This document shows positions 1,662 to 61,492 of a stretch of 64,000 nucleotides of DNA, in pieces; the stretch's first letter is position 1; every line of letters starts with the position of its first letter. The position numbers and the translations under genes are program-made. The notes below the pieces were generated by a model. It worked only from the letters and a program-made list of their open reading frames with translations, was not told the DNA's origin and made no database searches. Origin of the DNA: a virus; IMG/VR virus record IMGVR_UViG_3300045988_067909, one strand, 5' to 3'.

Positions 1662-1667
1662 TTTTAC

Positions 1668-4561: not shown

Positions 4562-4577
4562 GAGGTGATAGTTAATT

Positions 4578-5780: not shown

Positions 5781-5796
5781 GAGGTGATAGTTAATT

Positions 5797-6921: not shown

Positions 6922-6926
6922 AATAT

Positions 6927-18500: not shown

Positions 18501-20282
18501 ATGAAAAAAGTTATTTTGACAGCAATGGTTATTGGCTCTTTGAGCCTAAATGTAATGGCAATTGATAACGCTACTGGGTCTGGTAGTGGTATCGCTTATG
18601 GTACAGGAAGTAGTGCTAATGGTACACATGATGTATCCATTGGTGTATCTTCTAAAGCCGAAAACTACACAAACCAAAATGGTTCGATAGCTATTGGTCA
18701 TAAAGCTCATACTGAACTTATGGCTGGTGGTGTTGAAGCAGCATTTGGTTTTGGTCAAACTACATATAGTGGGAGCGAATTCTCATCTGCACGTGTCCCA
18801 GCTGACCCATCTAAAGTTATTGGTGCAGTAGCTATTGGTAACAATACATATGCTCGTACAGGTTCTACTATGGTTGGTTCTCATAACTACCATGGTGAAA
18901 TTGGTGATGTTACCATTAATACAGATAAAGATGAAACAGGCACTAGAAGCCAAGCATTAAATGTATATGCAACTAATATTGGTGCAAATAGCTTCAGTAA
19001 TGGTGCTTTAACTACATCTACTGGTGCTTATAATATTATTTCTAGTTCCTATACTGGTGGTAGATTCTCTACACCATCTCAAAATCTAGGTGCTACTATT
19101 ACAGGTGCTATGAATAGTATTGAATCTAAAACTGCACAAGGTATTGGCTCTGGTTGGTTTGCTGATAGAACTGGTGTTGGTGTAGCTAATACTATTAATG
19201 GTCTAGCAAATAGAACTGCCAATACTAATGGCACTATTGTATTTGGTGCTGGTAATGAAGTCACAAATTCTATTGCAGAATTGACTGGTATTCCAAAAAA
19301 TACTGGTAACTCTGCTAAAGAGTTTGCTGGTAAACTAAGAGATGGTATCTCTAAGTCTAATGGTGGTGGTGCTACTATGGTAATTGGTGGTGGTAATAAA
19401 GCCGATTACACATTACGCACTTCTATGATTGGTGTAAATAACACAGTTACTGGTACGTCTGGAAATGAAAGCACAGACAACTTTGTAGTTGGTGTAAACA
19501 ATAATGCATCTAATGTATCTAATGCAATTATTGTTGGTAATAACCATAATGTAGCTAATGCAACACATACAGTTATTATTGGTTCTAGTGATAATGCTAC
19601 AAGCACAGTAGTAAATGATGCTGTAGCTATTGGTCATAATACAGAAGTATCTTACGTTGGTGGTGTAGCTCTTGGTGCACAATCTAAAGCTACAGTAAAT
19701 TCTGGTGTAGCTGGATATGATGTAGTAACTAAGACACAATCTACAAACAATAGCCCTGTATGGACTTCTACAGCTTCTGCTGTATCTGTTGGTGATGTAG
19801 ATAATAATGTGACTCGTCAAATCACATCTGTATCCGCAGGTACTAATGATACTGATGCAGTTAACGTTGCACAACTTAAACAATTAGACAGCAAAATCGA
19901 TACTGGTGTGTCTGATGTATTAAATCGTGCAAATAACTATACTGACACTCAAGTATCCAAAGTTGGTGCTAGAGCAGCAGCATTATCTGGATTACATTAT
20001 GTAGACTATAACCCTAACGATAAATGGAGCTTTGCTGCATCTTTAGGTGGTTATAAAGGTTCTACTGCTGGAGCTATTGGAGTCGCTTATCAACCAAATG
20101 AAAGCACTCTTATCCATGCAGGTGTAACTTTAACAGATAGTCCAATGTACAATATTGGTGCATCTTTCAAAGTAGGTAAACAAGATCCTACATTGAAAAC
20201 TAGCCGTATTGAAATGGCACAACAAATCAAAGATTTACAAGAGCAACTTGCTGAAATCAAAGCAGCTCTTGCAAATAAATAA
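18501..20282 (+). CDS. YadA-like trimeric autotransporter adhesin (593 aa) with signal peptide, head repeats, neck (DAVNVAQLK) and C-terminal beta-barrel anchor plus a short coiled-coil tail
   Basis: Signal peptide MKKVILTAMVIGSLSLNVMA. Repeated SIGxxS/AIGxN head motifs. NVAQLK neck at nt 19852-19878. Anchor VGARAAALSGLHY...GASFKVG at about nt 19962-20178. Confidence 0.8.
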   Translation: MKKVILTAMVIGSLSLNVMAIDNATGSGSGIAYGTGSSANGTHDVSIGVSSKAENYTNQNGSIAIGHKAHTELMAGGVEAAFGFGQTTYSGSEFSSARVPADPSKVIGAVAIGNNTYARTGSTMVGSHNYHGEIGDVTINTDKDETGTRSQALNVYATNIGANSFSNGALTTSTGAYNIISSSYTGGRFSTPSQNLGATITGAMNSIESKTAQGIGSGWFADRTGVGVANTINGLANRTANTNGTIVFGAGNEVTNSIAELTGIPKNTGNSAKEFAGKLRDGISKSNGGGATMVIGGGNKADYTLRTSMIGVNNTVTGTSGNESTDNFVVGVNNNASNVSNAIIVGNNHNVANATHTVIIGSSDNATSTVVNDAVAIGHNTEVSYVGGVALGAQSKATVNSGVAGYDVVTKTQSTNNSPVWTSTASAVSVGDVDNNVTRQITSVSAGTNDTDAVNVAQLKQLDSKIDTGVSDVLNRANNYTDTQVSKVGARAAALSGLHYVDYNPNDKWSFAASLGGYKGSTAGAIGVAYQPNESTLIHAGVTLTDSPMYNIGASFKVGKQDPTLKTSRIEMAQQIKDLQEQLAEIKAALANK

Positions 20283-20359: not shown

Positions 20360-23077
20360 ATGATGAACAACAAAGTTATTTTAACAGCAGCAATTTTAGG
20401 TACTTTGGTATCCGGTTCTGTATTTGCACAAGGATCTAATACTGGATACAATAATGTATCTAATGGAGATTATGGAACAGTATTTGGTAGTAATAATACT
20501 AATGAAACAGGTGCCACAAGTTCATTAGCTTTTGGTGATGGAAATGTTGTAAAACAAGCAAACTCTATGGCTTTTGGCCAAGGTAACTTATCCGACGGCG
20601 AAAATAGTTTCGTCGGCGGTGATAAAGCTAAAGCTGTAGGTCGTGATACATTTGCGTTCGGCTCTTCTGCAGAAGCTCTAACTGAGTATACCATTGCCAT
20701 TGGTTCTCAAGCTAGAACTATTGGCTATAACACTTTGGCTATTGGTAATGGTGCTACAGTATCTGGTCCATCCTCTATTGCTATTGGTAAAACAAACAAT
20801 GTTACAGGTGAAAATTCTGTAGCTATTGGTGCTAATAATGGCACTATTAAAGGTGAACAAGCTGTAGTAGTTGGTTATAATAATAATATGACTACTGCTG
20901 ATCAAGAGCAATTGATCTTTGGTTCTAATTCTGTCACTAGTGGCCAAGGTTCTATCGTTGTAGGTACTCATGGTCAAGCTACTGCTGTTGATGCTGTTGC
21001 ATTAGGTAATAATACTATTGCTGACGTTCAAAATGGCGTCGCAATCGGCACAAATTCTGTAACAGAATCAGCTGTTGGTACATCCAATATTAAGGATAAT
21101 ACAACAGACATCCGTTTCAGTAATTCCACTTATGCAGGTTCCACACCTGATAGTGTTGTAAGCTTTGGTGCTAATGGTCGTGCTGGTGCTGGTGGTGTAA
21201 CTAGCTATACACGTCAGCTACAAAATGTAGCAGCAGGTCGTGTATCTTCCACATCTACAGATGCTATTAATGGTAGCCAATTGTACGATGTTGCTCTTGA
21301 AGCACAAAAGTACAATACTATGGCTGATGGATCCAATACTACAGTAGTAGCTACCGATAACGCTTACGGAAGAAAAGAATTCAAAGTAAACGTTAATAAG
21401 GATTTGGTAGACATGAACTCTGCAGCATTTGGAAAGAATACAGATAGCAAACATACAGTAGTTAATACTGATGGTACTATTGTATTTGATGGTGATAAAG
21501 ATACTAAGTATAGCGGTAACGGTTTAACTATCGAAGACCGTAATACTTTGGATGCTGCATCCTATAATATTAATGGTATGACAGCTTCTGATGCTAATGG
21601 TACAGTAAGCTTCACTACAACTAATATTGATGCTGGCAATAACCAAATTCACAACGTTAAAGCTGGTACAGCTGATACAGATGCGGTTAATGTTGATCAA
21701 ATGAATAAAGCTATCGAAGCCAATAAAGCAGTTGAATCCGTGGTTGCCGACAATCAAGTCGACAATATCGCAGCAGTACGTGTAACAAATGGCAAATCCA
21801 CTGGTGATGCAAATGCACAATATGGTGTATATGTATCCCGTTCTACTGTGGATGCTATTGCCAAGGCTTCTAACCGTTTTGCAGGAGACGACGTTATTAA
21901 TGTTACTCGTTGGGATGCTCCTGCTAATGTAGCAGATCTTACTACATTCAAATACAACGGCGAAAAAGCCGCAACTAAAACTCCATTGACTTACAAAGCT
22001 AATGGTAAAGATGCTAAACAAGTTATGCTTGCTAATGGCTTAGACTTCACTAATGGTAAAAACACTACAGCTACTACAGATGCTAATGGCGTAGTTAAAT
22101 ACTCTGTGAATGATAACTTGAATGGTATGAAATCCGTTAACTTCGATGGTGGTACTACAGTGAACAATGATGGCTTAACTATTAACAATGGCCCATCTGT
22201 AACTAAAGATGGTATTGATGCTGGTAATAAAACGATTACTAATGTAGCTCCTGGTCGTGTAGAAGCGGGTTCTACTGATGCAATTAACGGTAGCCAATTG
22301 AATGACGCAGCTCAACGTATTAGCAACCGTTATGATGCAGCTATTGCTAATAACCAACGTGAAATCAGTAAAGTAGGTGCTCGTGCAGCAGCTATGGCTA
22401 ACTTACATTATCAAGACTTCAATGCTGATGATAAATGGAGCTTCGCTGCAGGTTATGGTCATTATAAAGGTCAAAATGCTGGTGCATTAGGTGTAGCATA
22501 TCAACCAAATGAAAATACTATGATTAGTGTATCTTCCACTATTGGTAAAGATGCTATGATTGGTGCTGGTGTATCCATGAAGTTTGGTAAAGCATCTAAG
22601 ATGAATGCTAATAAACAAGTAGCTATGGCTAAAGAAATTCAAGAACTTCGTGCAATCGTAGCAGCTCAAAATGCTAAGATCGATGCATTAGTCGATCATG
22701 CTATGGGACGTAACGAAGCAATTACTGATGTAGTATTCCCTGATGTACCTGAAAATCATTGGGCATATATGATGGTACAAGACCTTGCTTACAAAGGTAT
22801 TGTAGTTGGTTATCCAGATAATAATTTCTCTGGTGACCGCACTCTAACTCGCTATGAATTTGCTGTAGCATTAGACCGTGCTATTTCTGCTGGTTATATG
22901 AATCCAGAATTGGGTCGTGCTATTAAAGAATTCAAACCTGAATTAGACAGCATCTATGCTAATATGCGTTTCCGTGTAGATCGTGAATCTGGTAAAGATG
23001 GTAGTGTAAATAAAGTTGAACGTGTACGTGTTAATAAAGACAGTGCTCGTGATAACTATGGCACTATCGTAAAATAA
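20360..23077 (+). CDS. trimeric autotransporter adhesin (905 aa) with an extra C-terminal periplasmic coiled coil and an SLH (S-layer homology) domain
   Basis: Signal peptide MMNNKVILTAAILGTLVSGSVFAQG. YadA-type head repeats. Neck DAVNVDQMN. Anchor VGARAAAMANLHY...VSMKFG at about nt 22372-22590. SLH motif FPDVPENHWAYMMVQDLAYKGIVVGYPDNNFSGDRTLTRYEFAVALDRAI at about nt 22735-22887. Confidence 0.8.
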   Translation: MMNNKVILTAAILGTLVSGSVFAQGSNTGYNNVSNGDYGTVFGSNNTNETGATSSLAFGDGNVVKQANSMAFGQGNLSDGENSFVGGDKAKAVGRDTFAFGSSAEALTEYTIAIGSQARTIGYNTLAIGNGATVSGPSSIAIGKTNNVTGENSVAIGANNGTIKGEQAVVVGYNNNMTTADQEQLIFGSNSVTSGQGSIVVGTHGQATAVDAVALGNNTIADVQNGVAIGTNSVTESAVGTSNIKDNTTDIRFSNSTYAGSTPDSVVSFGANGRAGAGGVTSYTRQLQNVAAGRVSSTSTDAINGSQLYDVALEAQKYNTMADGSNTTVVATDNAYGRKEFKVNVNKDLVDMNSAAFGKNTDSKHTVVNTDGTIVFDGDKDTKYSGNGLTIEDRNTLDAASYNINGMTASDANGTVSFTTTNIDAGNNQIHNVKAGTADTDAVNVDQMNKAIEANKAVESVVADNQVDNIAAVRVTNGKSTGDANAQYGVYVSRSTVDAIAKASNRFAGDDVINVTRWDAPANVADLTTFKYNGEKAATKTPLTYKANGKDAKQVMLANGLDFTNGKNTTATTDANGVVKYSVNDNLNGMKSVNFDGGTTVNNDGLTINNGPSVTKDGIDAGNKTITNVAPGRVEAGSTDAINGSQLNDAAQRISNRYDAAIANNQREISKVGARAAAMANLHYQDFNADDKWSFAAGYGHYKGQNAGALGVAYQPNENTMISVSSTIGKDAMIGAGVSMKFGKASKMNANKQVAMAKEIQELRAIVAAQNAKIDALVDHAMGRNEAITDVVFPDVPENHWAYMMVQDLAYKGIVVGYPDNNFSGDRTLTRYEFAVALDRAISAGYMNPELGRAIKEFKPELDSIYANMRFRVDRESGKDGSVNKVERVRVNKDSARDNYGTIVK

Positions 23078-23677: not shown

Positions 23678-23693
23678 AGTTATATATTATAAT
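23678..23693 (+). promoter_or_regulatory. promoter-like motif copy AGTTATATATTATAAT
   Basis: 40 nt upstream of ATG 23733. Confidence 0.5.
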
Positions 23694-23732
23694 CGTGACC
23701 AATGGTTAGGTTTATTTATAAGGAGGTATTTT

Positions 23733-24347: not shown

Positions 24348-24476
24348 GATGATAATTATCATCGATTGAAGAATATAGTTATATTCAAGGACCTCTAGGA
24401 GTTAGAGTGATAGATACAATAGTATCTTGATCTTTAACTTCTAGGGGTCCTTGAACACTATATCTTTTTTCTTTTG
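24348..24476 (+). ncRNA. candidate ~130-nt small RNA: motif promoter, then 16-bp palindrome, then a long hairpin (arms ttcaaggacctctag 24384-24398 and ctaggggtccttgaa 24441-24455), then a T-run; no ORF
   Basis: Promoter-like motif and terminator bracket a non-coding stretch. Could equally be a 5' attenuator of the downstream gene. Confidence 0.3.
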
Positions 24477-24580
24477 CGAATTTCTATGATACTGGCTAAG
24501 GTTTAGGAGGTGATATATGAAAGAAAACCAAATAGTATTTTAGAATTCTACTTTTTATTAATCCAAGGAGGACAGTCGTT

Positions 24581-25348
24581 ATGAAAATCATAAACGATGT
24601 CAAGAGGGATCTAAGATTCCTCATCGAATCAAAATTAACTAAGCAATTAGCTATTCAAACGATTTCTGAATTATATAAAAATGAACGTTTGAATCCAGAA
24701 TCGATTGGTCTGTGGTATGACCAAGTACGTAGAGATATTCCAAGCTATGTACAACGAACCACAACTAATGAACCACAAGTATGTGATATTAAGAAATCCA
24801 TAGTTGGTGGTAAAACAATCAAAGGGTCTATTATCACCCACGACAGAAAGAAAAGCAGTCGTAAAGATAATACACCATACTACAAACGAGGAGGTGAGAG
24901 ACGATGGCATAATATCGTAGTTGGAGGCACTATGATTTCAGCCAGAAGAAACCTAAAAGCAGCAAAAGCTTCCATTTCAGCTACATATAGATTTATGGAG
25001 TTGATAGATAGCGATGAGCCTAATCCAGAAAAGGCTATCATCGACATTGTCGATAAAGAATACCGTGAAGGATATTCATTGGACAATAAAAATGATATAC
25101 TCACTAGATTCGCCAGTGATTATATCGATAATAAGGCAATATTTCTTATGATGCCAAAGATTGGTAAGGAAATTGCCGAAGGGCGAGACATCGAAATGGT
25201 TGCACGAAAATATAAGACCACTAAGGATGCCATCATAGATATGGTTAAGAAACATAGCTTTGTATTCTTTACGTTCTATGATATGGGTGCTTTGACTTTT
25301 ATAGAAGGGATGGAAGAGTATGGAAAAACCACTTATCATTCCAAATAG
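24581..25348 (+). CDS. hypothetical basic protein (255 aa)
   Basis: RBS CAAGGAGGA. Preceded by a mini-ORF (MKENQIVF, 24493-24519) that has its own AGGAGGT RBS. Confidence 0.7.
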   Translation: MKIINDVKRDLRFLIESKLTKQLAIQTISELYKNERLNPESIGLWYDQVRRDIPSYVQRTTTNEPQVCDIKKSIVGGKTIKGSIITHDRKKSSRKDNTPYYKRGGERRWHNIVVGGTMISARRNLKAAKASISATYRFMELIDSDEPNPEKAIIDIVDKEYREGYSLDNKNDILTRFASDYIDNKAIFLMMPKIGKEIAEGRDIEMVARKYKTTKDAIIDMVKKHSFVFFTFYDMGALTFIEGMEEYGKTTYHSK

Positions 25349-26237
25349 CTATACATACAAACAAATCGCCGATTTTGCTTATATAGCAGAATCAATGAAT
25401 GGGTTTGACTTTATGTATAAAAATGGAAAATCTAAAGAAAGTTTAGATTCTCTCATTCCTAATAGCTCACAGTTACAGACCAGATACAATAGTTTCAAAA
25501 GCTACCTGGATAATTTTGGTATCACATTAGACCAATTCAAAAAATTGGATGTAAAAAGCTACTTCAATATAAAAGGTGCTAAAATTATGAGACACACTAC
25601 GTATCTGAAGAATGTATTCTTTAGGTACTATAACCCAAAGCTCACTGAGAAGCTTTATGAGTTTTATAAACTAGTCGAAGTCAATAAATTATCAAAGACT
25701 GGGACTAAGAAATACTTTGGGTATAGGAACTCACAAACTGTAGCAATAGTTCGTGCCTATAGATTTGGTAAACTTTTAAGTTTACCATCAAATGAGGAGT
25801 ATAATAACGCTCATAATTTTAAAAATAGAGCGGTTAATTATATGCTACTAACTAGCTATATTGATATACCAAATCAAAAGCATCAATTTGATATTAATAT
25901 TAAAGATTCTATCAATCTTACAATGAAACTGATGCTATTAGTTATAGATGGAAAAGACAGTATATCTTATAGTGAATTTATAGACAGATATAATATTGAT
26001 AAGAATGATATTTTATCTGAAAGACGTTATACAACTATAATAGATTATTATAGAAGATACAGAGGCCTGATCTCACAATATAAAGAATTAGTAGAAGACA
26101 TCAATAACGGAGTATCTTGGCATTCTATCTTATATAAATATCAATTAAAGAAGTATAATCTAAAATCAAGAGATAAATTTGTTCTTTGGCTGGATAAAGT
26201 TGCTCCAATCAAAGCTTTGATTAAAAAGGAGATATAA
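25320..26237 (+). CDS. hypothetical protein (305 aa)
   Basis: Overlaps the upstream gene by 29 nt. RBS GGAAGAG. Confidence 0.6.
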   Translation: MEKPLIIPNSYTYKQIADFAYIAESMNGFDFMYKNGKSKESLDSLIPNSSQLQTRYNSFKSYLDNFGITLDQFKKLDVKSYFNIKGAKIMRHTTYLKNVFFRYYNPKLTEKLYEFYKLVEVNKLSKTGTKKYFGYRNSQTVAIVRAYRFGKLLSLPSNEEYNNAHNFKNRAVNYMLLTSYIDIPNQKHQFDINIKDSINLTMKLMLLVIDGKDSISYSEFIDRYNIDKNDILSERRYTTIIDYYRRYRGLISQYKELVEDINNGVSWHSILYKYQLKKYNLKSRDKFVLWLDKVAPIKALIKKEI

Positions 26238-26239
26238 AA

Positions 26240-26728
26240 ATGGAAGAAAATTTAAAAAGCAAAATTTTAGAAGATCATGCTAATGGTATGACATTAGCAG
26301 ATATATCTAGTAAATACGATGTTTCTGCTAATGAACTCGTTAATATGATTCTTGATAATGGGGTACATAATAGTGGTCCCCGAACATTTCAAGAAGGACC
26401 TGCATTTGTGGTAAAAGATGATACAACTTCTAACACAGAAGTACAAGAACAAGAACCTAGTGATATCGTTCTATCAATTATACCAACAGATCAAGAATCT
26501 ATACCACAGCATTATATGCCAACACACAATGATGTGTTTATGGACTTAATCATATTTGGGGTGAGTCTTGATGATGTATGCTCTAAGTATGACATCACTA
26601 AAGGTGATGTAGGTATTATGCTTGAGGAAATCTATAAGGATTTATCTGATAGAGTTATCCCTATGGATGATATCAAAGAGGCAATTAAAAAGATCTGTGC
26701 AGAGGTTTATCTTGCACGTTTCAATTAG
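26240..26728 (+). CDS. small protein with two tandem HTH-like segments (LADISSKYDVSANELVNMI and LDDVCSKYDITKGDVGIML); possible transcription factor or RNAP accessory
   Basis: RBS AAAGGAGAT. Internally duplicated helix-turn-helix-like motif. Lies immediately upstream of the RNAP beta-prime fragment. Confidence 0.6.
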   Translation: MEENLKSKILEDHANGMTLADISSKYDVSANELVNMILDNGVHNSGPRTFQEGPAFVVKDDTTSNTEVQEQEPSDIVLSIIPTDQESIPQHYMPTHNDVFMDLIIFGVSLDDVCSKYDITKGDVGIMLEEIYKDLSDRVIPMDDIKEAIKKICAEVYLARFN

Positions 26729-26740
26729 GAGGAGTTAAGT

Positions 26741-28285
26741 ATGGAAGAAAGAAAATTAAACATGAATATCCGTCTTCATCATTCACCAAATGAATCATGG
26801 AAGACAACTATGGAGATTCTAGATTTAGATAAGCTTCGTATCGAGGGTATATCTAAAGGTAGAGACTTTATCATTTCTGAACCACAAACTGTAAAGAAAG
26901 ATTTAAAGTCAGATTCTTCCATCTTCTCTAGTAAATATGGAGCATCTATATCTGATGATAAAGATGCTTATAAGGATAGATATCGTTGTGAATGTGGTCA
27001 CTATACTGGTAGACTATATAATAACGAAATCTGTCCTTACTGTAATACTAAGGTCAAATATGTAGACGATGACCTTAATATTACTGGTTGGGTTGTATTA
27101 CAAGAGCATGTAATCATCCACCCTAACTTATTTAAGAACCTAGAGAAATTAATCACTCCAGCCGTTCTTAAAGACATCTTGACTCTAGATGTAGAGCTAG
27201 ATGAAAATGGATTCGAAGTATCTAAAGTAAATGAGAAAGTCAGAAAAGAATCTGGTGAGTATCATGGTATTGGTATGATAGAATTCTGTAAAAGAATAGA
27301 TGAGATTATGGAATACTTTGCTCGTAAGAACAAGTCCAAGAAAGATAAGATAGCTAACTATGAGTTGCTACTAAAATATAGGGACAGATTACTTACACAT
27401 TCTATTCCAGTATATTCTCTATTCTTACGTATGGTTAATCTCCAAGGGGATAAGTTCTCCTTTAAAGGAGCTAATGCTATTTACAATAATATCGCTAAAT
27501 ATGCAGCATTAGTAAATGGCAACCGTACAGTAATCCAAGCAAGAGATCAATTTAAAGATGAGGCTCTCTTGAATATTCAATATCTATATGCTGGGTCTAA
27601 TGATTCTTTGTATGATTCTGTCATTGAAGAATTAGCACATAAGAAAGGTGCCATTCAATCTGCATTAGCTGGACGGTATAACTTTACTGGTCGTAATGTA
27701 ATCATTCCAGATGCTACATTACGTATTGATGAGATTAAGCTTCCATATAACTCATTACTAGTTCTATTGGAACAAACTATCATCAATATCCTAGCTAGAT
27801 CTTATAATATCACTTATAGCGATGCTCATAAGAAGTGGTGGAAAGCCCAAACTTATGTAGATCCAGTTATATTAGATATCATCAAAGGTATCATTAAGTC
27901 TTACCCTCGAGGTATTCCATTCATCATCAATCGTAACCCAACTATCAACTATGGTTCTGTGTTACAAATGTATTGTATTGATGTATTGGTAGATTCATTC
28001 ACTATGAGAGTTCCATTACAGGTATTACCTGGTATGAATGCGGACTTTGACGGTGACTGCTTGAATATCACTTATCTTATTAATAAGGAATTCGTAGCTA
28101 GATGTGAAGAGTCTTTGAATCCTAGAAATACTATGATGATTTCTAAGAACAATGGGCGATTCAATTCATTCATGAACTACTTCAAGGATACTATTGTAAA
28201 CTTGAATAGTTTCTGTAATCTAGGTTTCGATACTTATACTAAAGATGAGATAGATGATATCAAAGCTCTAATGGAGGGTAGATAA
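26741..28285 (+). CDS. multisubunit RNA polymerase beta-prime subunit, N-terminal fragment (through the catalytic NADFDGD loop); split phage-encoded RNAP
   Basis: RBS TAGGAGGAG. Beta-prime zinc ribbon RYRCECGHYTGRLYNNEICPYCNTKV (nt 26987-27043; E. coli [25 protein letters not shown]). GMNADFDGDCLN (nt 28037-28057), then NPRNTMMISKNNG matching E. coli MMSTNNILSPANG. The ORF stops about 50 aa after the active site, as in split jumbo-phage RNAPs. Confidence 0.8.
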   Translation: MEERKLNMNIRLHHSPNESWKTTMEILDLDKLRIEGISKGRDFIISEPQTVKKDLKSDSSIFSSKYGASISDDKDAYKDRYRCECGHYTGRLYNNEICPYCNTKVKYVDDDLNITGWVVLQEHVIIHPNLFKNLEKLITPAVLKDILTLDVELDENGFEVSKVNEKVRKESGEYHGIGMIEFCKRIDEIMEYFARKNKSKKDKIANYELLLKYRDRLLTHSIPVYSLFLRMVNLQGDKFSFKGANAIYNNIAKYAALVNGNRTVIQARDQFKDEALLNIQYLYAGSNDSLYDSVIEELAHKKGAIQSALAGRYNFTGRNVIIPDATLRIDEIKLPYNSLLVLLEQTIINILARSYNITYSDAHKKWWKAQTYVDPVILDIIKGIIKSYPRGIPFIINRNPTINYGSVLQMYCIDVLVDSFTMRVPLQVLPGMNADFDGDCLNITYLINKEFVARCEESLNPRNTMMISKNNGRFNSFMNYFKDTIVNLNSFCNLGFDTYTKDEIDDIKALMEGR

Positions 28286-28521
28286 TGTATACTGGAAATA
28301 ACTACTTTGCTGCTAGATCCGAAGTATTACAATTAGGTGAAGCTGTAGTAGTAAAATCTGAGTTACACGATATTGATATTCCATGTCGTGTAGCTTTAAT
28401 TGAGCCGAATGATCCGATGCAAGGTTATAATACATACTATCTTGTATCTGATTATTCTGATTTGAACGATAAATTCGATCCACGCATTGGAGACTTCCAT
28501 TGTGTGATCATTGATAAATAG
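28285..28521 (+). CDS. small hypothetical protein (78 aa)
   Basis: TAATG overlap. RBS GGAGGG. Confidence 0.6.
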   Translation: MYTGNNYFAARSEVLQLGEAVVVKSELHDIDIPCRVALIEPNDPMQGYNTYYLVSDYSDLNDKFDPRIGDFHCVIIDK

Positions 28522-28635
28522 GGGGTTATTATGGGCGGTACTACATACGGTGGCTTCTAATAATTAATATGTATTGGGGTAGTCTTAAGGGCTACCCCAA
28601 ACATTTATATAATTTTTTGTCATTAAGGAGGTATT

Positions 28636-30222
28636 ATGGCTAAGAAACCTTTTTATGAGTACCGTATAGTCACTCCAGTAGGCCCAGATAATGATGGTAA
28701 TATACCTCTGATTGAGCTTGATATAAAACGTGATGATGACCCTGGTATTCATACTATATCTGAAATAAAGAAAGATAGAGAGCAGTTACCTAGGTCTGAT
28801 AAAGATACACCATTGACTACTGATGATGTACAGTTAAAAGTAGAGCCTGGTAAAGACTTTGAAGTGGTTAATAGAGATGTATTAGCTAAGATATATGCAG
28901 ACCCTGATAAGTTTAAACCAATTGATATAGTAGAACGTATGGAGAAGAAGATATATCGTAATCTCTGTGTTCCATCTCATGTACACGCATACTCAGTATG
29001 TGTAGAGTTCTTTAAGAACTATATCTTATCACAGTTTAGTGCATCATTCTTTAAGACAGTCTACATCGAAGGGAAACATCTCTTTGATGATTGGGCTAAA
29101 CTTAATATCAATGATATGATTAAACGTGGTAAACCTGCTATTGCTATTATTCCTCAGTTAGATACAGACTTTAACCGTGATGGTATAGATGCTAATAACT
29201 ATGACTTAACGTATTATGCCAGAACGTTCAACTATAGAGATACATTCTTTAAAGATAGAGAGCGTGATAAGTATATTGCTATAGCATTTGAGCAAATGCT
29301 TATGAACTTCCAAGTACGTATCAAAGTCAATACTAAAGCTAAGCAAATAGATATTATGAAATATCTTAAGATGGCTCTTAAAGTTGGTGCCACATCTGGT
29401 AAGTATCTTGATATGGATATCCATGTACCACAAGAAATGCTACTAGCATTAGCTCAAGATGTAGGATTTGATGTAGATCTAGAGAAGAAAGAAATCAAAG
29501 ACCCATTCAAATTCCTAGTATACTTAAATAGTAAGTCCGAAGTCCCATTCATCTATAAGCTTAGAGCTATTAATGGTAGAAATGAGTTCTTTATTAGAGC
29601 TAAAGCTATGTATACTCATATAGCTACACCAGATATCAATATAGATGATGGTGAGCGCCAAGGACAAGTAAGTTCTAATTACTTTATTGAGTTTACTACA
29701 GAGATTAGAATGCCAGCGCCTAAAGTATATTGCTACTTTACTGCTAAGCACACTAATCTTATTGAGTTTACTGATAACGCTGGTAATATTAAGTCGTATG
29801 TAGCTAACTTTGCGAATGTACCAACATTGAATGAACGTGGTTGGGAACAATTCTTTACATTAGACTATGAAGATAAGAAAGATAAAGTGCTAGAGATTAG
29901 TATTAGCGATATCTTTGATGGTGACCCATATATAAATAAATTAATAAAGTACTGTAAGTCTAAGTTCATTAGTCCATCTGTGTTTATTGACTTTAAGATT
30001 GTCAATAATAATAAGATAGTTGATATAGATGTCAACTGGACTGATATGGTTATCAATACAATCAAACCTGTAGACTTTGAGTATTCAGAGATAGTCGTTT
30101 ATACTGATAAAGCATATATGAATTCTCAATTACTAGCTATGGAACAAGATACAGGCTACCGTGTAGTCTATAATAAAGATCCAGAATCTGAGAACTATCC
30201 TATACATGATAATAGAAATTAA
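28636..30222 (+). CDS. hypothetical protein (528 aa); possibly a highly diverged beta-prime C-terminal fragment
   Basis: RBS TAAGGAGGT. Segment MALKVGATSGKYLDM at aa ~247-260 weakly resembles the beta-prime bridge helix (TALKTANSGYLTRRL) at roughly the expected offset. Otherwise unrecognisable. Confidence 0.7.
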   Translation: MAKKPFYEYRIVTPVGPDNDGNIPLIELDIKRDDDPGIHTISEIKKDREQLPRSDKDTPLTTDDVQLKVEPGKDFEVVNRDVLAKIYADPDKFKPIDIVERMEKKIYRNLCVPSHVHAYSVCVEFFKNYILSQFSASFFKTVYIEGKHLFDDWAKLNINDMIKRGKPAIAIIPQLDTDFNRDGIDANNYDLTYYARTFNYRDTFFKDRERDKYIAIAFEQMLMNFQVRIKVNTKAKQIDIMKYLKMALKVGATSGKYLDMDIHVPQEMLLALAQDVGFDVDLEKKEIKDPFKFLVYLNSKSEVPFIYKLRAINGRNEFFIRAKAMYTHIATPDINIDDGERQGQVSSNYFIEFTTEIRMPAPKVYCYFTAKHTNLIEFTDNAGNIKSYVANFANVPTLNERGWEQFFTLDYEDKKDKVLEISISDIFDGDPYINKLIKYCKSKFISPSVFIDFKIVNNNKIVDIDVNWTDMVINTIKPVDFEYSEIVVYTDKAYMNSQLLAMEQDTGYRVVYNKDPESENYPIHDNRN

Positions 30223-32030: not shown

Positions 32031-32090
32031 TACGGTGGTGTAGGTGTATGCCACCGTATTACTCCATTGTTATACCTGTTTTATTTTTTA
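32031..32090. terminator. probable bidirectional terminator between convergent genes (atacggtggtgtaggtgtatgccaccgtat hairpin, T-rich flanks)
   Basis: 9-bp stem. Sits between convergent 3' ends. Confidence 0.4.
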
Positions 32091-35000
32091 TACAGTTTCG
32101 AATATAACAGGGTCAACGAAACCGACATAAGCTTTAGGATTCTTAGCTTGCATAAATTCAGCTTTACGTAAGAAGTCTAATGTAACATTAAACCCTTTAA
32201 AGATATTACGCATACTAGTATTACCTGTAGCTGTTTTTACTATATTAGCTACACGTTCTACTTCTATACCTGTAGGGTTTTGTGCTTGAACTATATTAGC
32301 AGAAGATGATAAGTATTCATTAGACCAAGGCCCCATAACCTGATATCTACTATTAGTAAAGTATACAGCAATCTTTAAGTTATAGCCAGGGTTCTTTTGG
32401 AACTCTTGTGCTAAGACTTTATTGATACGTGCTAGGTATGTATTAACAGGGCGTAGTGAAGCACGTTTAATAGATACATTAGTACCATTACGGTTATATT
32501 GCACTCTAGAATCATTATTAGCTTCAGCATAGTTATTGACTATGAACGCTACAGATTCATTTTCAGCTAGTTTACTATAGTATCTTGTAATGAAGCTAGT
32601 AATATAGTTGACATTGTTATTCAAGTCATCAATATTATCTAGATAGATTACATATTGTTTATGGTTAGTATCAGACTTTCTATTTACAAATAGATTCATA
32701 GGAGATTGTCCAATACTAATACTAGTCGGAACAGTAACACTATCATCTAAGAATTGATTATAGAAGTGGAGAATGCCCTTAAAGTGTGGTATAAGTGTAA
32801 CTTGATTACAATCTGGATATGTATATTGACCCTCACGTAGAGAATGTGCTGTATCATTAGGATTTAAGAATTTAGTTAACCCATTACGGATACCATCTCT
32901 GTAGAATCTAGCATACATAATATCAGAACTATGCATAAAGAAATCATAGACTACACCCTTCTTATAAAGCTTAGTACTAAACTTAGATTTCCAATCATCA
33001 GAGCCTGGTTCATTAGTATAGTCTAAGTTAGGCTTAAACATTTCAGGAACTGCCACATATGTATTTCTACCAATACCTGATAAGCATTCATCACCATTAC
33101 CATTAAACAATAACGGATTATTATAATGGAAGTATGTATGTAAGAACGTACCAACACCAATCTCTTGGATATTCTTATACCCTTTATCGTCCGTATAACG
33201 CATAGATAGGTTATCCATTACTGGTTCAAACGTATTGATTTGGTTTACACCATAGTTTCTGGCTACACGTATACGATTATACTCATTAGCGTTATTACCT
33301 AATGCTACATAATTGCTAGAACTATTTAATGCTAAAGACTCTTCAGCTAATAAACAGTTTGAGATATTAGCATTATATACGTAATCACCAGTATGATACA
33401 TAAATTTACCAGGACCATTCTTAGGTTCTGCTATATAACTAGCATCAGTATCCCCAGATTGTTTGAATAATACATCTGGTAATACTGCATTACTTGTAAT
33501 ATTATTATTTGTACCAGGAACTGTATTACTACCAATGATATAGTTTATAGATGTAGAGTTATTAGGGCTAATAAATCCTTTGGTGTAACTACCATCAGAT
33601 GAGAATGTGATATTATAGTTAAGTCTTTGAATATCTGTAATTGTATTTATTAATAATGCACCATAGATAGGATGTCTAATAGCTGGATCATCAGGTATAA
33701 ATTTACGTATTTCTATATATAGCGTTTGGTAATTCATTGTAGATAATAACCACCCAGAGATATAGTCATATGTAGTTTTATCTATTAATGGAATCCAGAA
33801 TTTCTCATTATTAGCACCAGTATATTCTATATAGCATATACGATATCTATAGTCACTGCCAGGTCTGGAATTATTGGTTGTTGGAATCTTATAGAACCCA
33901 ACAGGGTTACCTGTAACTTTAAATATACAATCTGTCGTTATAGGGTCAGTTATAGTTTTATTTATTGAAGAATCAGGTATATTATATATATTAGCTGCTG
34001 ATGCGGCATTTAATTCACGACCACAAATGAATGTGATATTATCTTCATTCCTAAATAAGTCATTCATAGTACCGGCTGGTGCAGTTGTCCATAATGCTAA
34101 ACCACCGGCAACTTCAGTGAAGTATATATCCTGAGGATATGTACCATTATTTATGCCAGTTCGTACTCCTAGACATTCTCTATATATACTTTCTACAGTG
34201 TCACGACTGTTTGTCTGGGCAATACCACTATCATCTAGATCTGTATAATCTAATAAGAATAATCCAACATCCTTAGATCCTGTAGCCATATAGTTAGCCC
34301 AAACAGATTTAGTTATATTCGCTAATTCTTGTGGACTTACATTTAATACATTACGCAAATAGTCACTATCTACGATATAAACAGCCATACTTCTATTATC
34401 TATATTGATATCACGTAACTTAGCTATAGTATCTTTGAAGTGTTCCATATAAGATTTACCTGCAGGAGCATCAGATCGTCTTAGTATGTACTTAAATGCT
34501 GGTGCATTAAATCTGACGGATACATCAGAGCTTATATTTGTAGGTCTAGGTTCTACTGAGTTTGTATATTTTACTGCATTTACGTAGTCATCTATAAGTA
34601 AGATATAGCCCCATAGCATATTATCGATCAATGTTTGCCGACGATACATGTAGATACGACCATAGGTATTATTGATAGCATTAAACAAATTATATTGACC
34701 AATACCATATAAATCGTATGGTACAGCATTACAGTTACTAGCAGATTCAGTTACAGTACATTTAATAACTGGAGAATCTTGGAACAAATTCAATGCTACA
34801 CGGTTATGTTCTGTTTTACCAACTACCATTTCACAATGAGATGCATCTAATAATGGTGTAGTGAAATCGGAGAAGTATCTTGATTTCAAGTTTACTATTT
34901 TATTAGTAGTATCTATATCTGTTACATTTATAGGATTAGCTTTATAGAAGAACTCATTATTATCTCTTGTAGGATTAGCGTTAGGTATTCGCTTACCAGC

Positions 35001-37922: not shown

Positions 37923-37934
37923 AGTTTATCCTTT

Positions 37935-40652: not shown

Positions 40653-40663
40653 ATTAGTCCACC

Positions 40664-43444: not shown

Positions 43445-43462
43445 TTATATACCTCCTGGAAG

Positions 43463-45073
43463 TTAAACTGTGCCTTGATCAGCAATACCCATTTCATATT
43501 CATAGTTATAGAACCAGCTAATACCAGAATCATAAGACATCATCTTTAGATGAATCTTCTTATTAGTTGGTGGGATATATACATATAGATTATTATTATC
43601 TGGCTTAGTAAACTTAAGAATCTTTCTTGTAGTATTACTAGAGTTTGTAAAGTCAATAAATAAGTCAATCCATAATGTAGTATCACGAGTACCACTACGT
43701 TGAATCTTGAACTCTACATTAGAGTCTTGGCTATCAAAGCTATGAATAGTATAAGGATAAATCTTATTAGCTTCAGGGTCGCCAGATGGTAAATGTACCT
43801 TTTCTGCAGGCATAGTTACGTTCTTAGCAGTAACTTTTTCACGTTCCAATGCAGATACACGTGGAGTTAAGTCTTCTGCTAACATTAAACCACTGACTTG
43901 TGTTTTAAGTATATTAACTGAGTTAGTTAATACAGAGTTTTGAGACTCTAAGTTAGTGATATTAGAAGTAAAGTTAGGTACAGCTTCTAGTGTAGCAATA
44001 CGTGTATCATAATCAGCTTTAAACTTAGCAATGTTTAAGCCTTCTAATGTATTCAATCTACCAGAGATAGCAGATACTTCAGATGTAGTACGGTTAGTAT
44101 TACCTTCGATAGCTGATAGTTTAGATTCTGTATTACTTTTTAAAGTTTCAAAAGATGAACTAATAGTATTGACTTTGTTAGTCAACTCAGTAACTTTAGG
44201 TTCTAAATCAGGCTTAGCTAATAAAGTTTGTACTTTAACTTGAAGATCAGTAATCTTAGTGAAAGCAGCAGACTGTGCTTCAATAGCAGTAATACGTCTA
44301 TCTAAAGCAGTAAACTTAGGTTCAGTATCTTCTTTAGACTCTAATGTAGTCAATCTATTATTCATAGCTTGTGTATCAGATTTAAGTCCAGAGATATCTG
44401 TTTTAATAGGATCAATCTCTGCTGTTTTAAGAATCTTAGTATCTAATACATCTAAACGGTTACGGTTAGAATCAGATAAAGTTTTGATTGCTGGTAAGTC
44501 TGCATATAAATCAGCAGTAACTTGGATATCAGCAATTTGTTTACGAAGACGTTTAAACTCTTCAGCATCAGGTGGAGCTAATGTTTCCAATCTAGTAACA
44601 CGTCTAACTACATCTTCATCAATACGTGGTACCCATTTGATTACGTTATTATCTTTAACTGGGTAAGTATTATTACCAGCAACCTTAAAGTTAGAGATAC
44701 CTACTTCAGTATCTTGTACTGTAATAGAACGGTTATCAAATCTTAATGTCGGAGAAAGATAATGTGCTTCATCATTCTCTTTTAGTGTAATATTATTCTT
44801 ATAGATTCTATTGATAGCCTTAGTAAGATTAATCTCACCAACACCCTCAATATTAACGATGAAGTTATCAGCAATAGAACCAGAGTTTGTAAACTCGTTA
44901 ATGATATTAGCGGTAATATCTATAATAACTGATTTGTCATCTGCAGATACTACATAAAGCTTACCTTTTTTATAGTCAACCAAAAGCTCTTTCTTCTGAG
45001 CTATAAACCTGGAGTCATAATCTAAGGCTATAACCGGAGCTCTACCACTGTTGTATCTAGTAGTATTAGGCAT
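43463..45073 (-). CDS. coiled-coil-rich fibre-like protein (536 aa)
   Basis: RBS AAAGGAGGT. Long heptad-like central region (LETLAPP...TLESKED...TLKSNTESKLSAIEG...). Confidence 0.75.
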   Translation of the reverse strand: MPNTTRYNSGRAPVIALDYDSRFIAQKKELLVDYKKGKLYVVSADDKSVIIDITANIINEFTNSGSIADNFIVNIEGVGEINLTKAINRIYKNNITLKENDEAHYLSPTLRFDNRSITVQDTEVGISNFKVAGNNTYPVKDNNVIKWVPRIDEDVVRRVTRLETLAPPDAEEFKRLRKQIADIQVTADLYADLPAIKTLSDSNRNRLDVLDTKILKTAEIDPIKTDISGLKSDTQAMNNRLTTLESKEDTEPKFTALDRRITAIEAQSAAFTKITDLQVKVQTLLAKPDLEPKVTELTNKVNTISSSFETLKSNTESKLSAIEGNTNRTTSEVSAISGRLNTLEGLNIAKFKADYDTRIATLEAVPNFTSNITNLESQNSVLTNSVNILKTQVSGLMLAEDLTPRVSALEREKVTAKNVTMPAEKVHLPSGDPEANKIYPYTIHSFDSQDSNVEFKIQRSGTRDTTLWIDLFIDFTNSSNTTRKILKFTKPDNNNLYVYIPPTNKKIHLKMMSYDSGISWFYNYEYEMGIADQGTV

Positions 45074-45125
45074 ATAGTAACCTCCTTTTAAAAGTCGTCA
45101 AATTATATAAATGTTAAAGTACACC

Positions 45126-45168
45126 AAAAATTGAGGTAGGAGCTTAAAGGCCCCTACCTCGGTATTTT
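45126..45168 (-). terminator. terminator after the 1766-aa gene (gaggtaggagcttaaaggcccctacctc hairpin; U-run on the minus strand, and also T-rich on the plus strand)
   Basis: 9 of 10 bp stem. A/T runs on both flanks. Confidence 0.5.
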
Positions 45169-51646: not shown

Positions 51647-51668
51647 TATTGTCAACTATATATTATAG
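51647..51668 (+). promoter_or_regulatory. variant promoter-like motif TATTGTCAACTATATATTATAG
   Basis: 20 nt upstream of ATG 51688, within a 270-bp divergent intergenic region. Confidence 0.4.
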
Positions 51669-51687
51669 AAATGGAGGTGTTTAAATA

Positions 51688-60901: not shown

Positions 60902-60953
60902 GTCGTAAATCCTCCTGATTACAATACTGTTTCAGAGGTAGAAAGGTACTCTT

Positions 60954-61490: not shown

Positions 61491-61492
61491 AG

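What the first reader, a model, noticed from the sequence alone, without database searches (positions are those of the whole stretch)
26741..28285. Phage-encoded multisubunit RNA polymerase beta-prime N-terminal fragment (split RNAP, jumbo-phage style)
The beta-prime zinc ribbon, the NADFDGD catalytic loop and the following conserved stretch are clearly visible, but the ORF ends about 50 aa after the active site. This is the same break point as the split beta-prime of phiKZ/AR9-type phage RNAPs. It implies this phage encodes its own RNAP subunits, with the other fragments outside this window.
Basis: partly seen in the sequence, partly recalled or inferred. Interest (0 to 1): 0.7.

Follow-up and report, generated by a model that had tools for sequence, protein, structure and literature searches.

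The report
Jumbo-phage RNA polymerase beta-prime N-terminal subunit
This gene encodes the front half of the largest subunit of a phage's own multi-piece RNA polymerase; it is a real and strongly conserved gene, but it is an ordinary member of an enzyme family already studied in giant phages such as AR9 and phiKZ.

Summary
Window 26741-28285 (+) is an intact 514-aa ORF with a beta-prime zinc ribbon (C83, C85, C98, C101) and NADFDGD (433-439). It matches Pfam RNA_pol_Rpb1_2, PHROG 2987 (E=1.5e-63) and the solved AR9 non-virion RNAP beta-prime N subunit (7S00_d, E=6e-40). Homology to E. coli beta-prime stops near residue 510, the same point as in AR9 gp270, phiR1-37 g274 and PhiPA3 gp054.

The window holds no other RNAP fragment. 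On the same ~260-kb phage contigs I found:
- non-virion beta C (742 aa) and beta N (592 aa), ~60-66 kb downstream;
- non-virion beta-prime C (708 aa) and a virion-type beta-prime N paralogue (573 aa), ~113-118 kb downstream;
- an AR9 gp264-like virion RNAP fragment, 3 kb upstream of the window.

Reciprocal matches place the window ORF in the non-virion set. Population variants show pN/pS of 0.004-0.02.

The exact protein is already in NCBI (DAV44652.1, an uncultivated Caudoviricetes genome), annotated as RNAP beta-prime, and occurs on 232 metagenomic contigs. Its nearest relatives outside its own 50%-identity cluster are at most 44% identical.

This is a new member of a known kind, of low to moderate interest.

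The parts
26741..28285 (+). Gene for the N-terminal fragment of the beta-prime-like subunit of the phage non-virion RNA polymerase (514 aa).
   Evidence: ORF. Pfam RNA_pol_Rpb1_2. PHROG 2987 E=1.5e-63. PDB 7S00_d (AR9 nvRNAP beta-prime N) E=6e-40 and 7OGP_A (phiKZ gp55) E=3e-15. Hits AR9 gp270 and not the virion paralogue gp145. pN/pS 0.004-0.02.
26727..26734 (+). Shine-Dalgarno-like AGGAGGAG, 6 nt upstream of the ATG.
   Evidence: Read directly from the sequence.
26987..27043 (+). Codons for the beta-prime N-terminal zinc ribbon (C83, C85, C98, C101).
   Evidence: Cysteine positions. Aligned with E. coli C70/C72/C85/C88, and with the ribbons of group-d, phiR1-37 and PhiPA3 homologues. AR9 gp270 lacks this segment.
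27674..28096 (+). Region matching Pfam RNA_pol_Rpb1_2 (aa 312-452), the beta-prime double-psi beta-barrel region.
   Evidence: The same stretch aligns to bacterial, cyanobacterial and archaeal large subunits.
28037..28057 (+). Codons for NADFDGD (aa 433-439), the catalytic Mg-binding loop.
   Evidence: Aligned with E. coli NADFDGD 458-464.
28285..28521 (+). 78-aa ORF whose ATG overlaps the beta-prime N stop codon (TAATG), so it is probably translationally coupled. Function unknown.
   Evidence: The same gene is called in all six metagenomic copies. phiR1-37 also has a small ORF (g273) directly after its beta-prime N gene. No family hit.
24581..26728 (+). Three tightly packed co-directional ORFs (255, 305 and 162 aa) directly upstream, probably in the same transcription unit. 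Functions unknown; the 162-aa product has only weak DNA-binding-like hits.
   Evidence: Gene order is conserved in six contigs.
28574..28600 (+). Terminator-like hairpin (12 bp stem, T-rich tail) that would end the unit containing beta-prime N.
   Evidence: This is a consensus scan only; function is inferred.
24384..24455 (+). Very stable hairpin followed by a T-rich run. It is a possible terminator or processing site, marking the upstream boundary of the beta-prime N gene cluster.
   Evidence: dG -46.9 kcal/mol, z=-9.4, 0 of 200 shuffles fold as well. Function is inferred.
23682..23697 (+). ATATATTATAATCGTG, a match to the AR9-type early (virion RNAP) promoter core ATATATTAT-N5-TG. It is the nearest such motif upstream of beta-prime N.
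   Evidence: AR9 annotated early promoters. Three window matches against 0.56 expected, all intergenic and on the + strand. The same motif overlaps the annotated promoter just upstream of phiR1-37 g274 and lies just upstream of many beta-prime C genes of relatives. Whether it drives beta-prime N through the 24384-24455 hairpin is not known.
28636..30222 (+). 528-aa ORF of PHROG 21946, the family of phiR1-37 g272 (annotated as a phage structural protein). It is a conserved neighbour and not an RNAP subunit by any test run here.
   Evidence: Homologues lie 3 kb downstream of beta-prime C in two relatives. No PDB match and no tblastn match in the phage collection.

Best explanation
The ORF encodes the N-terminal half of the beta-prime-like subunit of the non-virion RNA polymerase (nvRNAP) of an uncultivated ~260-kb jumbo phage from human-associated metagenomes.

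The polypeptide covers the part of beta-prime from its N-terminus to just past the active-site barrel. That span includes the zinc ribbon, the clamp region and the barrel carrying NADFDGD, which holds the catalytic magnesium.

By analogy with the purified and solved AR9 and phiKZ enzymes, it would assemble with three separately encoded polypeptides (beta-prime C, beta N, beta C) into a catalytic core without alpha or omega subunits. A fifth phage protein would probably supply promoter recognition. The enzyme would transcribe late phage genes independently of the host polymerase. The nvRNAP genes themselves would be transcribed early by a second, virion-packaged polymerase injected with the DNA.

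Shown here: homology, the split point, the catalytic and zinc motifs, the partner genes on the same contigs, a virion-type paralogue, and purifying selection. Inferred: assembly, timing, promoter use and host independence.
For: Family and fold:
- Pfam RNA_pol_Rpb1_2 E=3e-11 and PHROG 2987 E=1.5e-63 over residues 72-492.
- Best solved relative is the AR9 nvRNAP beta-prime N chain 7S00_d, E=6e-40, query 109-488 against chain 73-443 of 448. Next is phiKZ gp55, 7OGP_A, E=3e-15.
- Best phage-record matches are phiR1-37 g274 ('RpoC, N-terminus', 29% identity over 88% of the query), AR9 gp270 (annotated non-virion RNAP subunit), and Staphylococcus and Erwinia phage genes labelled nvRNAP beta-prime.

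Split point:
- The alignment with E. coli beta-prime ends at about residue 510 in all four phage proteins.
- 196 clusters at 50% identity match at E<=1e-30, and most of the full-length ones listed are about 450-560 aa, so the short architecture is the family norm.

Partner genes:
- On IMGVR_UViG_3300007186_000004, which is 96% DNA-identical to the window over 21 kb: beta C, 742 aa, matches 7S00_C at E=2.4e-69 and PHROG 3295 at E=5e-92; beta N, 592 aa, matches 7S00_c at E=6e-41.
- On IMGVR_UViG_3300008275_000006 and 3300007123_000011, which carry beta-prime N at 97-98% aa identity: beta-prime C, 708 aa, matches 7S00_D at E=5e-37 and PHROG 3015 at E=3e-50.

Non-virion rather than virion:
- The same contigs carry a separate 573-aa beta-prime N paralogue (PHROG 2986, E=2.6e-77). 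It matches the three exons of AR9 gp145 (virion beta-prime N) and not gp270. The window ORF matches gp270 and not gp145.
- An AR9 gp264-like virion fragment (407 aa, PHROG 2962 E=3.8e-71) lies 2.9-4.1 kb upstream of the window on the window's own contig.

Functionality:
- 16 population variants differ at 15-28% of synonymous sites and show almost no amino-acid change, pN/pS 0.004-0.02.
- The exact protein is on 232 contigs.

Biochemistry of the family: PMC5449584, PMC9209446 and PMC7598289.
Against: - No homologue of the fifth subunit (AR9 gp226 / phiKZ gp68) was detected at E<=0.01 in the roughly 125 kb of this phage that I could read, about half the genome. This family is known to be very divergent.
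- The beta-prime C gene and the virion beta-prime N gene were read from a sister variant that is only ~81-83% DNA-identical to the window over the part that aligns, not from the window's own contig.
- Two expected virion fragments (beta N and beta C) and the small C-terminal beta-prime piece were not searched for.
- Nothing here shows expression, assembly, absence from virions or rifampicin resistance.
Confidence: 0.93

Rival explanations
1. It is the beta-prime N fragment of the virion-packaged RNA polymerase (vRNAP), which is injected with the DNA and transcribes early genes, rather than of the non-virion enzyme.
For: Both sets share the same fold and split site (PMC7598289). The window ORF also gives a weak match to the virion-type family PHROG 2986, E=4.9e-10. 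A virion RNAP fragment lies only ~30 kb upstream on the same contig.
Against: PHROG 2987 scores E=1.5e-63 against 4.9e-10 for PHROG 2986. tblastn hits AR9 gp270 (nv) and not gp145 (v). A distinct 573-aa paralogue on the same contigs is the gp145 orthologue, with PHROG 2986 E=2.6e-77. The best solved match is the nvRNAP chain. All named phage hits that state a set say non-virion.
Confidence: 0.04
2. It is a decaying piece of a host rpoC gene captured by the phage, with no function of its own.
For: The conserved core resembles bacterial beta-prime, including a canonical NADFDGD and a zinc ribbon with bacterial spacing.
Against: The ORF is intact. It scores 44 bits against a 963.5-bit cut-off for bacterial rpoC and aligns to cellular enzymes only over ~170 residues. 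pN/pS is 0.004-0.02 at pS 0.15-0.28. The matching complementary fragments are encoded on the same contigs. The family has hundreds of clusters of the same length.
Confidence: 0.01
3. The ORF is only the first exon of a longer beta-prime gene interrupted by a group I intron or homing-endonuclease insertion, as in several AR9 RNAP genes, so the 'split' is a splicing artefact of ORF calling.
For: AR9 gp270 itself carries an intron with an HNH endonuclease, and AR9 gp145, gp189 and gp078 are multi-exon. Some contigs of this phage carry an HNH_3-domain gene directly after a shortened dUTPase gene.
Against: The C-terminus coincides with the mature C-termini of AR9 gp270 (spliced), phiR1-37 g274 and PhiPA3 gp054. 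The next ORFs (78 aa and 528 aa) have no beta-prime similarity. tblastn of 120 beta-prime C homologues finds nothing in the window. The beta-prime C gene is a complete separate ORF ~118 kb away with its own ribosome-binding site.
Confidence: 0.02

Closest known systems
Bacillus phage AR9 gp270, the nvRNAP beta-prime N-terminal subunit (PDB 7S00/7S01/7UM0/7UM1 chain d)
   Same: Closest solved relative (E=6e-40). Same C-terminal end and the same four-fragment core. All four AR9 core chains have a counterpart on this phage's contigs. Broad gene-order synteny: DnaB, RecD-like helicase, gyrB, gyrA, then UvsX, beta C, ligase, beta N, then v-beta-prime N, polB, beta-prime C, helicase. The same early-promoter core ATATATTAT-N5-TG is present.
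   Different: Only ~28% identical. AR9 gp270 lacks the zinc ribbon and has SGDYDGD instead of NADFDGD. AR9 gp270 is interrupted by an intron, whereas this gene is not. AR9 has uracil DNA and encodes a uracil-DNA-glycosylase inhibitor, whereas this phage encodes a dUTPase-like protein. No gp226 homologue has been found here yet.
Yersinia phage phiR1-37 g274 ('RpoC, N-terminus')
   Same: Best match among cultured phages: 29% identity over 88% of the query. It retains a zinc-ribbon-like segment. It shares the micro-synteny beta-prime N, small ORF, PHROG 21946 structural protein. The early-promoter motif lies directly upstream of g274.
   Different: 452 aa against 514. It has GADYDGD and lacks the ~20-aa N-terminal extension and the C-terminal tail. 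The host is a gamma-proteobacterium, and the phage is reported to have uracil DNA.
phiKZ gp55 / PhiPA3 gp054, nvRNAP beta-prime N (PDB 7OGP chain A)
   Same: Same fragment, same split site, and the zinc ribbon and NADFDGD are retained.
   Different: More distant: E=3e-15, ~25% identity. These belong to the nucleus-forming, thymine-DNA phiKZ-like group.
Cyanobacterial RNAP gamma subunit (RpoC1) and bacterial beta-prime
   Same: Homologous core around the active site (E=1e-12 to 1e-7). Cyanobacteria also split beta-prime after the active-site barrel (PMC7598289).
   Different: The similarity is confined to ~170-230 residues. In my alignments the phage fragment stops near E. coli residue 510. The 625-aa gamma chains continue ~140 residues beyond the last aligned residue, so the two breaks are similar but not shown here to be identical. 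Cellular enzymes also need alpha and omega.

Membership tests
Jumbo-phage non-virion RNAP, beta-prime N-terminal subunit (phiKZ gp55 / AR9 gp270 family; PHROG 2987) | Sequence homology to the family over most of its length. | tested here: met
   PHROG 2987 E=1.5e-63, residues 72-492 against profile positions 46-474 of 478. 7S00_d E=6e-40 and 7OGP_A E=3e-15.
Jumbo-phage non-virion RNAP, beta-prime N-terminal subunit (phiKZ gp55 / AR9 gp270 family; PHROG 2987) | Carries the beta-prime active-site barrel with the metal-binding aspartate triad. | tested here: met
   NADFDGD at 433-439, inside the Pfam RNA_pol_Rpb1_2 match.
Jumbo-phage non-virion RNAP, beta-prime N-terminal subunit (phiKZ gp55 / AR9 gp270 family; PHROG 2987) | The polypeptide ends at the family's split site just after the barrel. 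| tested here: met
   Homology ends at the column of E. coli ~504-512 in this ORF, AR9 gp270, phiR1-37 g274 and PhiPA3 gp054. The 7S00_d alignment reaches residue 443 of 448.
Jumbo-phage non-virion RNAP, beta-prime N-terminal subunit (phiKZ gp55 / AR9 gp270 family; PHROG 2987) | The complementary nvRNAP fragments (beta-prime C, beta N, beta C) are separate genes in the same genome. | tested here: met
   Beta C and beta N lie on a contig 96% DNA-identical to the window. Beta-prime C lies on sister contigs carrying beta-prime N at 97-98% aa identity. Beta-prime C was not read from the window's own contig.
Jumbo-phage non-virion RNAP, beta-prime N-terminal subunit (phiKZ gp55 / AR9 gp270 family; PHROG 2987) | Orthologous to the non-virion paralogue and not to the virion one. 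| tested here: met
   Reciprocal tblastn pattern against AR9 gp270 and gp145, and a separate in-genome virion-type paralogue.
Jumbo-phage non-virion RNAP, beta-prime N-terminal subunit (phiKZ gp55 / AR9 gp270 family; PHROG 2987) | A fifth, promoter-specificity subunit (phiKZ gp68 / AR9 gp226 family) is encoded by the phage. | tested here: inconclusive
   tblastn with AR9 gp226 finds nothing at E<=0.01 in the window plus the fetched target loci, about half the genome. The neighbouring 528-aa ORF is not of that family: it is PHROG 21946, whereas gp226 is PHROG 25005. No profile-level search was run.
Jumbo-phage non-virion RNAP, beta-prime N-terminal subunit (phiKZ gp55 / AR9 gp270 family; PHROG 2987) | The protein is absent from virions, is made after infection, and the enzyme is independent of host RNAP. 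| not testable with these tools
   This needs virion proteomics, time-resolved RNA-seq and rifampicin experiments on a cultured phage-host pair.
Phages with two multisubunit RNAPs (virion plus non-virion sets) | A second, virion-type set of beta/beta-prime fragments is encoded. | tested here: met
   Virion beta-prime N paralogue, 573 aa with GGDYDGD. AR9 gp264-like fragment, 407 aa. The virion beta N and beta C fragments and the small C-terminal beta-prime piece were not searched for.
Uracil-DNA jumbo phages (AR9/PBS1, phiR1-37, S6) | Genome with dU in place of dT, together with genes that support it, such as AR9's uracil-DNA-glycosylase inhibitor. | tested here: inconclusive
   The nearest cultured relatives are listed as uracil-DNA phages. 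However, the phage encodes a protein matching dUTP diphosphatase better than dCTP deaminase (E=4e-35 against 1e-4, both below the curated cut-offs). That argues weakly against uracil DNA. Base composition cannot be read from an assembly.
Bacterial or cyanobacterial cellular beta-prime / gamma (rpoC, rpoC1) | Reaches the curated family score. | tested here: not met
   44-45 bits against cut-offs of 963.5 (rpoC) and 1117 (gamma).

The most novel reading that the evidence does not exclude
This abundant human-associated jumbo phage would represent a deep, uncharacterised branch of the AR9/phiR1-37-like two-polymerase phages. It keeps the ancestral zinc ribbon and canonical NADFDGD in its non-virion beta-prime and probably has thymine DNA. 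In that case its non-virion enzyme would have to recognise late promoters without the template-strand deoxyuridines that AR9 gp226 reads, possibly through a promoter-specificity subunit unrelated in sequence to gp226/gp68.
Probability: 0.15. Interest if true: 0.55.

Novelty: new member of a known kind. Interest (0 to 1): 0.27.

Why it matters
The finding identifies the contig as a jumbo phage that carries its own transcription machinery in two sets. Such a phage is likely to be independent of, and insensitive to inhibitors of, the host polymerase.

The lineage is common in human-associated metagenomes: the exact protein is on 232 contigs and its 90% cluster has 408 members. It is at most 44% identical to any relative outside its own 50%-identity cluster. 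It therefore adds a well-sampled, divergent data point for the evolution of split RNAPs, including retention of the zinc ribbon that AR9 lost and conservation of the early-promoter core.

It does not change what is known about how these enzymes work. The protein is already deposited and annotated as an RNAP beta-prime subunit.

Tried and rejected
Failed routes to the partner genes:
- Beta-prime C via AR9 gp154 homologues and exact-protein look-ups (P0105, P0055, P0113, P0077, P0200, P0330, P0375). All of these turned out to be other, related jumbo phages.
- Motif scans with TQ[RMI][LQ]LS[AS]KH missed the target.
- A first beta C scan ranked the target below the 80 loci kept.
- Cropped-motif alignments finally worked.

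Hypothesis that the adjacent 528-aa ORF is the fifth (gp226/gp68-like) subunit: rejected. It belongs to PHROG 21946, the phiR1-37 g272 structural-protein family, whereas gp226 is PHROG 25005. It has no PDB hit and no tblastn match in the phage collection.

Other RNAP fragments hidden in the window's giant unannotated ORFs (1266, 1944, 905, 926 and 1766 aa): no Pfam or PHROG RNAP hit, and no tblastn hit with 120 beta-prime C homologues.

Host rpoC pseudogene and intron-split gene: rejected (see the rival explanations).

Close cultured relative: none. Megablast of 8 kb found nothing in 50,697 phage records.

Structure prediction was not run. Only near-identical sequences could be submitted as an alignment, and the sequence matches to solved chains were already decisive.
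Full report
OBSERVATION

Window 26741-28285 (+) is an uninterrupted 514-aa ORF with an ATG start. AGGAGGAG lies 6 nt upstream, and the stop codon overlaps the start of a 78-aa ORF (TAATG). The protein has four cysteines, C83-x-C85-x12-C98-xx-C101, and NADFDGD at residues 433-439.

The matches are far beyond chance:
- Pfam RNA_pol_Rpb1_2 at E=3e-11, 44.3 bits against a gathering score of 25.3.
- PHROG 2987 'RNA polymerase beta subunit' at E=1.5e-63, over residues 72-492.
- Solved chains: 7S00_d, the beta-prime N-terminal subunit of the AR9 non-virion RNA polymerase, at E=6e-40; then phiKZ gp55 (7OGP_A) at E=3e-15; then cyanobacterial gamma and bacterial beta-prime at 1e-12 to 1e-6.

One detail differs: the ORF runs 75 residues past the last aspartate, of which about 50 are still homologous.

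WHAT IT IS

Among 50,697 phage records there is no DNA-level relative. At protein level the best hits are:
- phiR1-37 g274 ('RpoC, N-terminus', 29% identity);
- Bacillus phages BpSp, Goe21, AR9 and PBS1;
- Listeria phage LPJP1;
- Staphylococcus jumbo phages, labelled non-virion beta-prime;
- Erwinia phages, one labelled 'nvRNAP beta' subunit 1';
- PhiPA3 gp054, which its record notes as similar to phiKZ gp055.

AR9 gp270 is annotated as, and was purified as, a subunit of the non-virion polymerase (PMC5449584).

I aligned the window protein with E. coli beta-prime and four phage homologues. The window protein starts at the beta-prime N-terminus. Its zinc ribbon has exactly the E. coli spacing (C70, C72, C85, C88). 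It stops being homologous at the position of E. coli ~504-512 (QDVVLGLYY). AR9 gp270, phiR1-37 g274 and PhiPA3 gp054 all end at that same column. The window protein then adds a ~25-residue tail. AR9 gp270 has lost the zinc ribbon and has SGDYDGD; the window protein keeps both ancestral motifs.

THE REST OF THE POLYMERASE

No other RNAP fragment is detectable in the 64-kb window. PHROG and Pfam scans of all ORFs of 120 aa or more found none, and tblastn with 120 beta-prime C homologues found nothing.

The window is part of ENA contig ERZ783382 NODE_1_length_260470:
- the beta-prime N gene is identical at nucleotide level in locus L004;
- the first window gene is found on that contig.

On that same contig, 2.9-4.1 kb before window base 1, a 407-aa gene on the minus strand matches AR9 gp264 at 33% identity, E=3e-54. 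AR9 gp264 is annotated as a virion RNAP subunit. The gene also matches PHROG 2962 at E=3.8e-71. It matches the beta-prime C family PHROG 3015 as well, so it is probably the 'Mid-beta-prime' piece of the virion enzyme described in PMC7598289.

On IMG/VR contig 3300007186_000004 (267 kb), which is 96% DNA-identical to the window over 21 kb and has an identical beta-prime N protein:
- a 742-aa gene ~60 kb downstream matches the AR9 nvRNAP beta C chain 7S00_C at E=2.4e-69;
- a 592-aa gene ~66 kb downstream matches the beta N chain 7S00_c at E=6e-41.

On sister contigs 3300008275_000006 and 3300007123_000011, which carry beta-prime N at 97-98% aa identity:
- a 708-aa gene ~118 kb downstream matches the AR9 beta-prime C chain 7S00_D at E=5e-37;
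- a 573-aa gene 5 kb before it is a second beta-prime N paralogue (PHROG 2986, E=2.6e-77, motif GGDYDGD). It matches the three exons of AR9 gp145, the virion beta-prime N.

The reciprocal pattern assigns the window gene to the non-virion set: the window ORF matches gp270 only, and the 573-aa protein matches gp145 only. Gene order around these fragments parallels AR9: UvsX, beta C, ligase, beta N; and v-beta-prime N, polB, beta-prime C, helicase.

IS IT FUNCTIONAL?

Sixteen full-length copies from other samples differ from the window gene at 15-28% of synonymous sites. They show almost no amino-acid change, with pN/pS of 0.004-0.02. The exact protein occurs on 232 contigs, and its 90% cluster has 408 members. 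Against NCBI's bacterial rpoC model it scores 44 bits, where the cut-off is 963.5. A decayed host fragment is excluded.

HOW IT PROBABLY WORKS

This part is inferred from the family (PMC5449584, PMC9209446, PMC7598289). The fragment would supply the clamp, zinc ribbon and catalytic loop of a four-polypeptide core that lacks alpha and omega. A fifth phage protein would confer promoter specificity. The enzyme would transcribe late genes. The injected virion polymerase would transcribe the early genes, which in AR9 carry annotated early promoters and include the beta-prime C and gp226 genes.

Three observations are consistent with this:
- The AR9 early-promoter core ATATATTAT-N5-TG occurs three times in the window against 0.56 expected. 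All three are intergenic and on the + strand.
- One copy (23682-23697) is the nearest such motif upstream of the beta-prime N cluster.
- The same motif overlaps the annotated promoter just upstream of phiR1-37 g274 and lies just upstream of the beta-prime C genes of many relatives.

The beta-prime N gene is the fourth of five tightly packed genes (24581-28521). A very stable hairpin lies upstream at 24384-24455 (dG -46.9 kcal/mol, z=-9.4), and a terminator-like hairpin lies downstream at 28574-28600. Whether transcription reads through the upstream hairpin is unknown.

I found no gp226/gp68 homologue in the half of the genome I could read. The neighbouring 528-aa ORF is not one. It belongs to the family of the phiR1-37 structural protein g272, a neighbour that is conserved in phiR1-37 as well.

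COMPARISON AND NOVELTY

The gene meets every sequence-testable criterion of the gp55/gp270 family (see the membership table). The family is large. In 1.84 billion cluster representatives, 196 match at E<=1e-30, and most of the full-length ones listed are 450-560 aa. The nearest full-length relatives outside the query's own cluster are at most 44% identical.

The protein is already public: DAV44652.1, a third-party-annotated (TPA) metagenome-assembled genome of 'Caudoviricetes sp.', with the source names 'DNA-directed RNA polymerase beta' subunit' and 'MAG TPA: RNA polymerase I subunit'. Jumbo phages are known to be common in the human mouth (bioRxiv 10.1101/2020.07.06.186817).

This is a new, divergent and abundant member of a well-characterised kind. 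It is not a new kind.

HOST AND DNA CHEMISTRY (side issues)

Host hints are weak. There are trimeric-autotransporter-like proteins with an SLH domain, and one 16-kb contig is binned into an uncultured Solobacterium metagenome-assembled genome.

The closest cultured relatives are listed as uracil-DNA phages. This phage, however, encodes a dUTPase-like protein. Uracil DNA is therefore neither supported nor excluded.

Noticed in passing
window 309-10392 (+), continuing upstream in L124:7497-10059: A cluster of radical-SAM proteins interleaved with unknown ORFs of ~370-570 aa. Three are in the window (309-1661, 6927-7967, 9214-10392; PHROG 1802) and two more lie just upstream. This looks like a modification or biosynthetic gene cluster in a phage genome.
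   Followed up: partly
window 18501-20282 and 20360-23077 (+): Two proteins with YadA_stalk and YadA_anchor domains; the larger one also has an SLH domain (precomputed Pfam). These are trimeric-autotransporter-like proteins in a phage. They hint at a diderm Firmicute (Negativicutes) host. A related phage has a similar gene next to gyrA (L199).
   Followed up: partly
window 32088-50468 (-): A run of very large minus-strand ORFs (1944, 905, 926, 536 and 1766 aa) with essentially no family hits. The first varies in length between population variants, from 1944 to 2047-2054 aa. The 1766-aa protein has distant homologues near beta-prime C genes in other jumbo phages.
   Followed up: no
window 23682-23697, 51658-51673, 63920-63935 (+); variants at 17581 and 30270; L273:8893-8909: The AR9-type early-promoter core ATATATTAT-N5-TG lies in intergenic positions just before + strand genes (3 found, 0.56 expected). 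The motif is widespread in the fetched jumbo-phage loci and often sits 50-150 bp upstream of beta-prime C. A variant, GTATATTAT-N5-TA, precedes the target's beta-prime C gene and the window ORF at 30379.
   Followed up: partly
window 24384-24455 (+): A 72-nt near-perfect hairpin (dG -46.9 kcal/mol, z=-9.4) followed by a T-rich run, lying between the 192-aa ORF and the beta-prime N gene cluster. A tiny ORF with its own AGGAGG follows at 24517-24543.
   Followed up: partly
window 50483-51415 (-): A 310-aa protein with weak matches to the PhiKZ_VTX vertex-binding protein gp28 (Pfam E=5e-4) and to a PHROG virion structural protein (E=1.9e-8).
   Followed up: no
L448:4496-5761 (same phage, about 55 kb beyond beta-prime N): A 421-aa protein with weak tubulin/FtsZ-like matches (PHROG 4733 'tubulin PhuZ' E=1.8e-6; NCBIfam ftsZ E=1.9e-6, far below the cut-off). 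PhuZ is a feature of nucleus-forming phiKZ-like phages.
   Followed up: no
L122:19726-20638 versus L123:19747-20190 (about 8 kb beyond the window's right end): The dUTPase gene is 147 aa in one population variant. In another it is 86 aa and is followed by a 213-aa HNH_3-domain gene. This suggests a mobile endonuclease or intron insertion polymorphism.
   Followed up: no
L233-L238 (a different, related jumbo phage, protein P0375): A TonB-dependent receptor, two FecCD permeases, an ABC ATPase and a periplasmic binding protein lie within 10 kb of the phage beta-prime C gene, on several independent contigs. This is either an iron-uptake cassette carried by a jumbo phage or a recurring assembly join.
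   Followed up: no
L033/L034 versus window 60127-62719: In a related phage (~35-55% aa identity in the shared genes), beta-prime C and a ~10-kb block lie between the DnaB-like helicase and the Dda-like helicase. In the window the same interval holds only small ORFs. The RNAP genes have therefore moved relative to the replication genes.
   Followed up: partly
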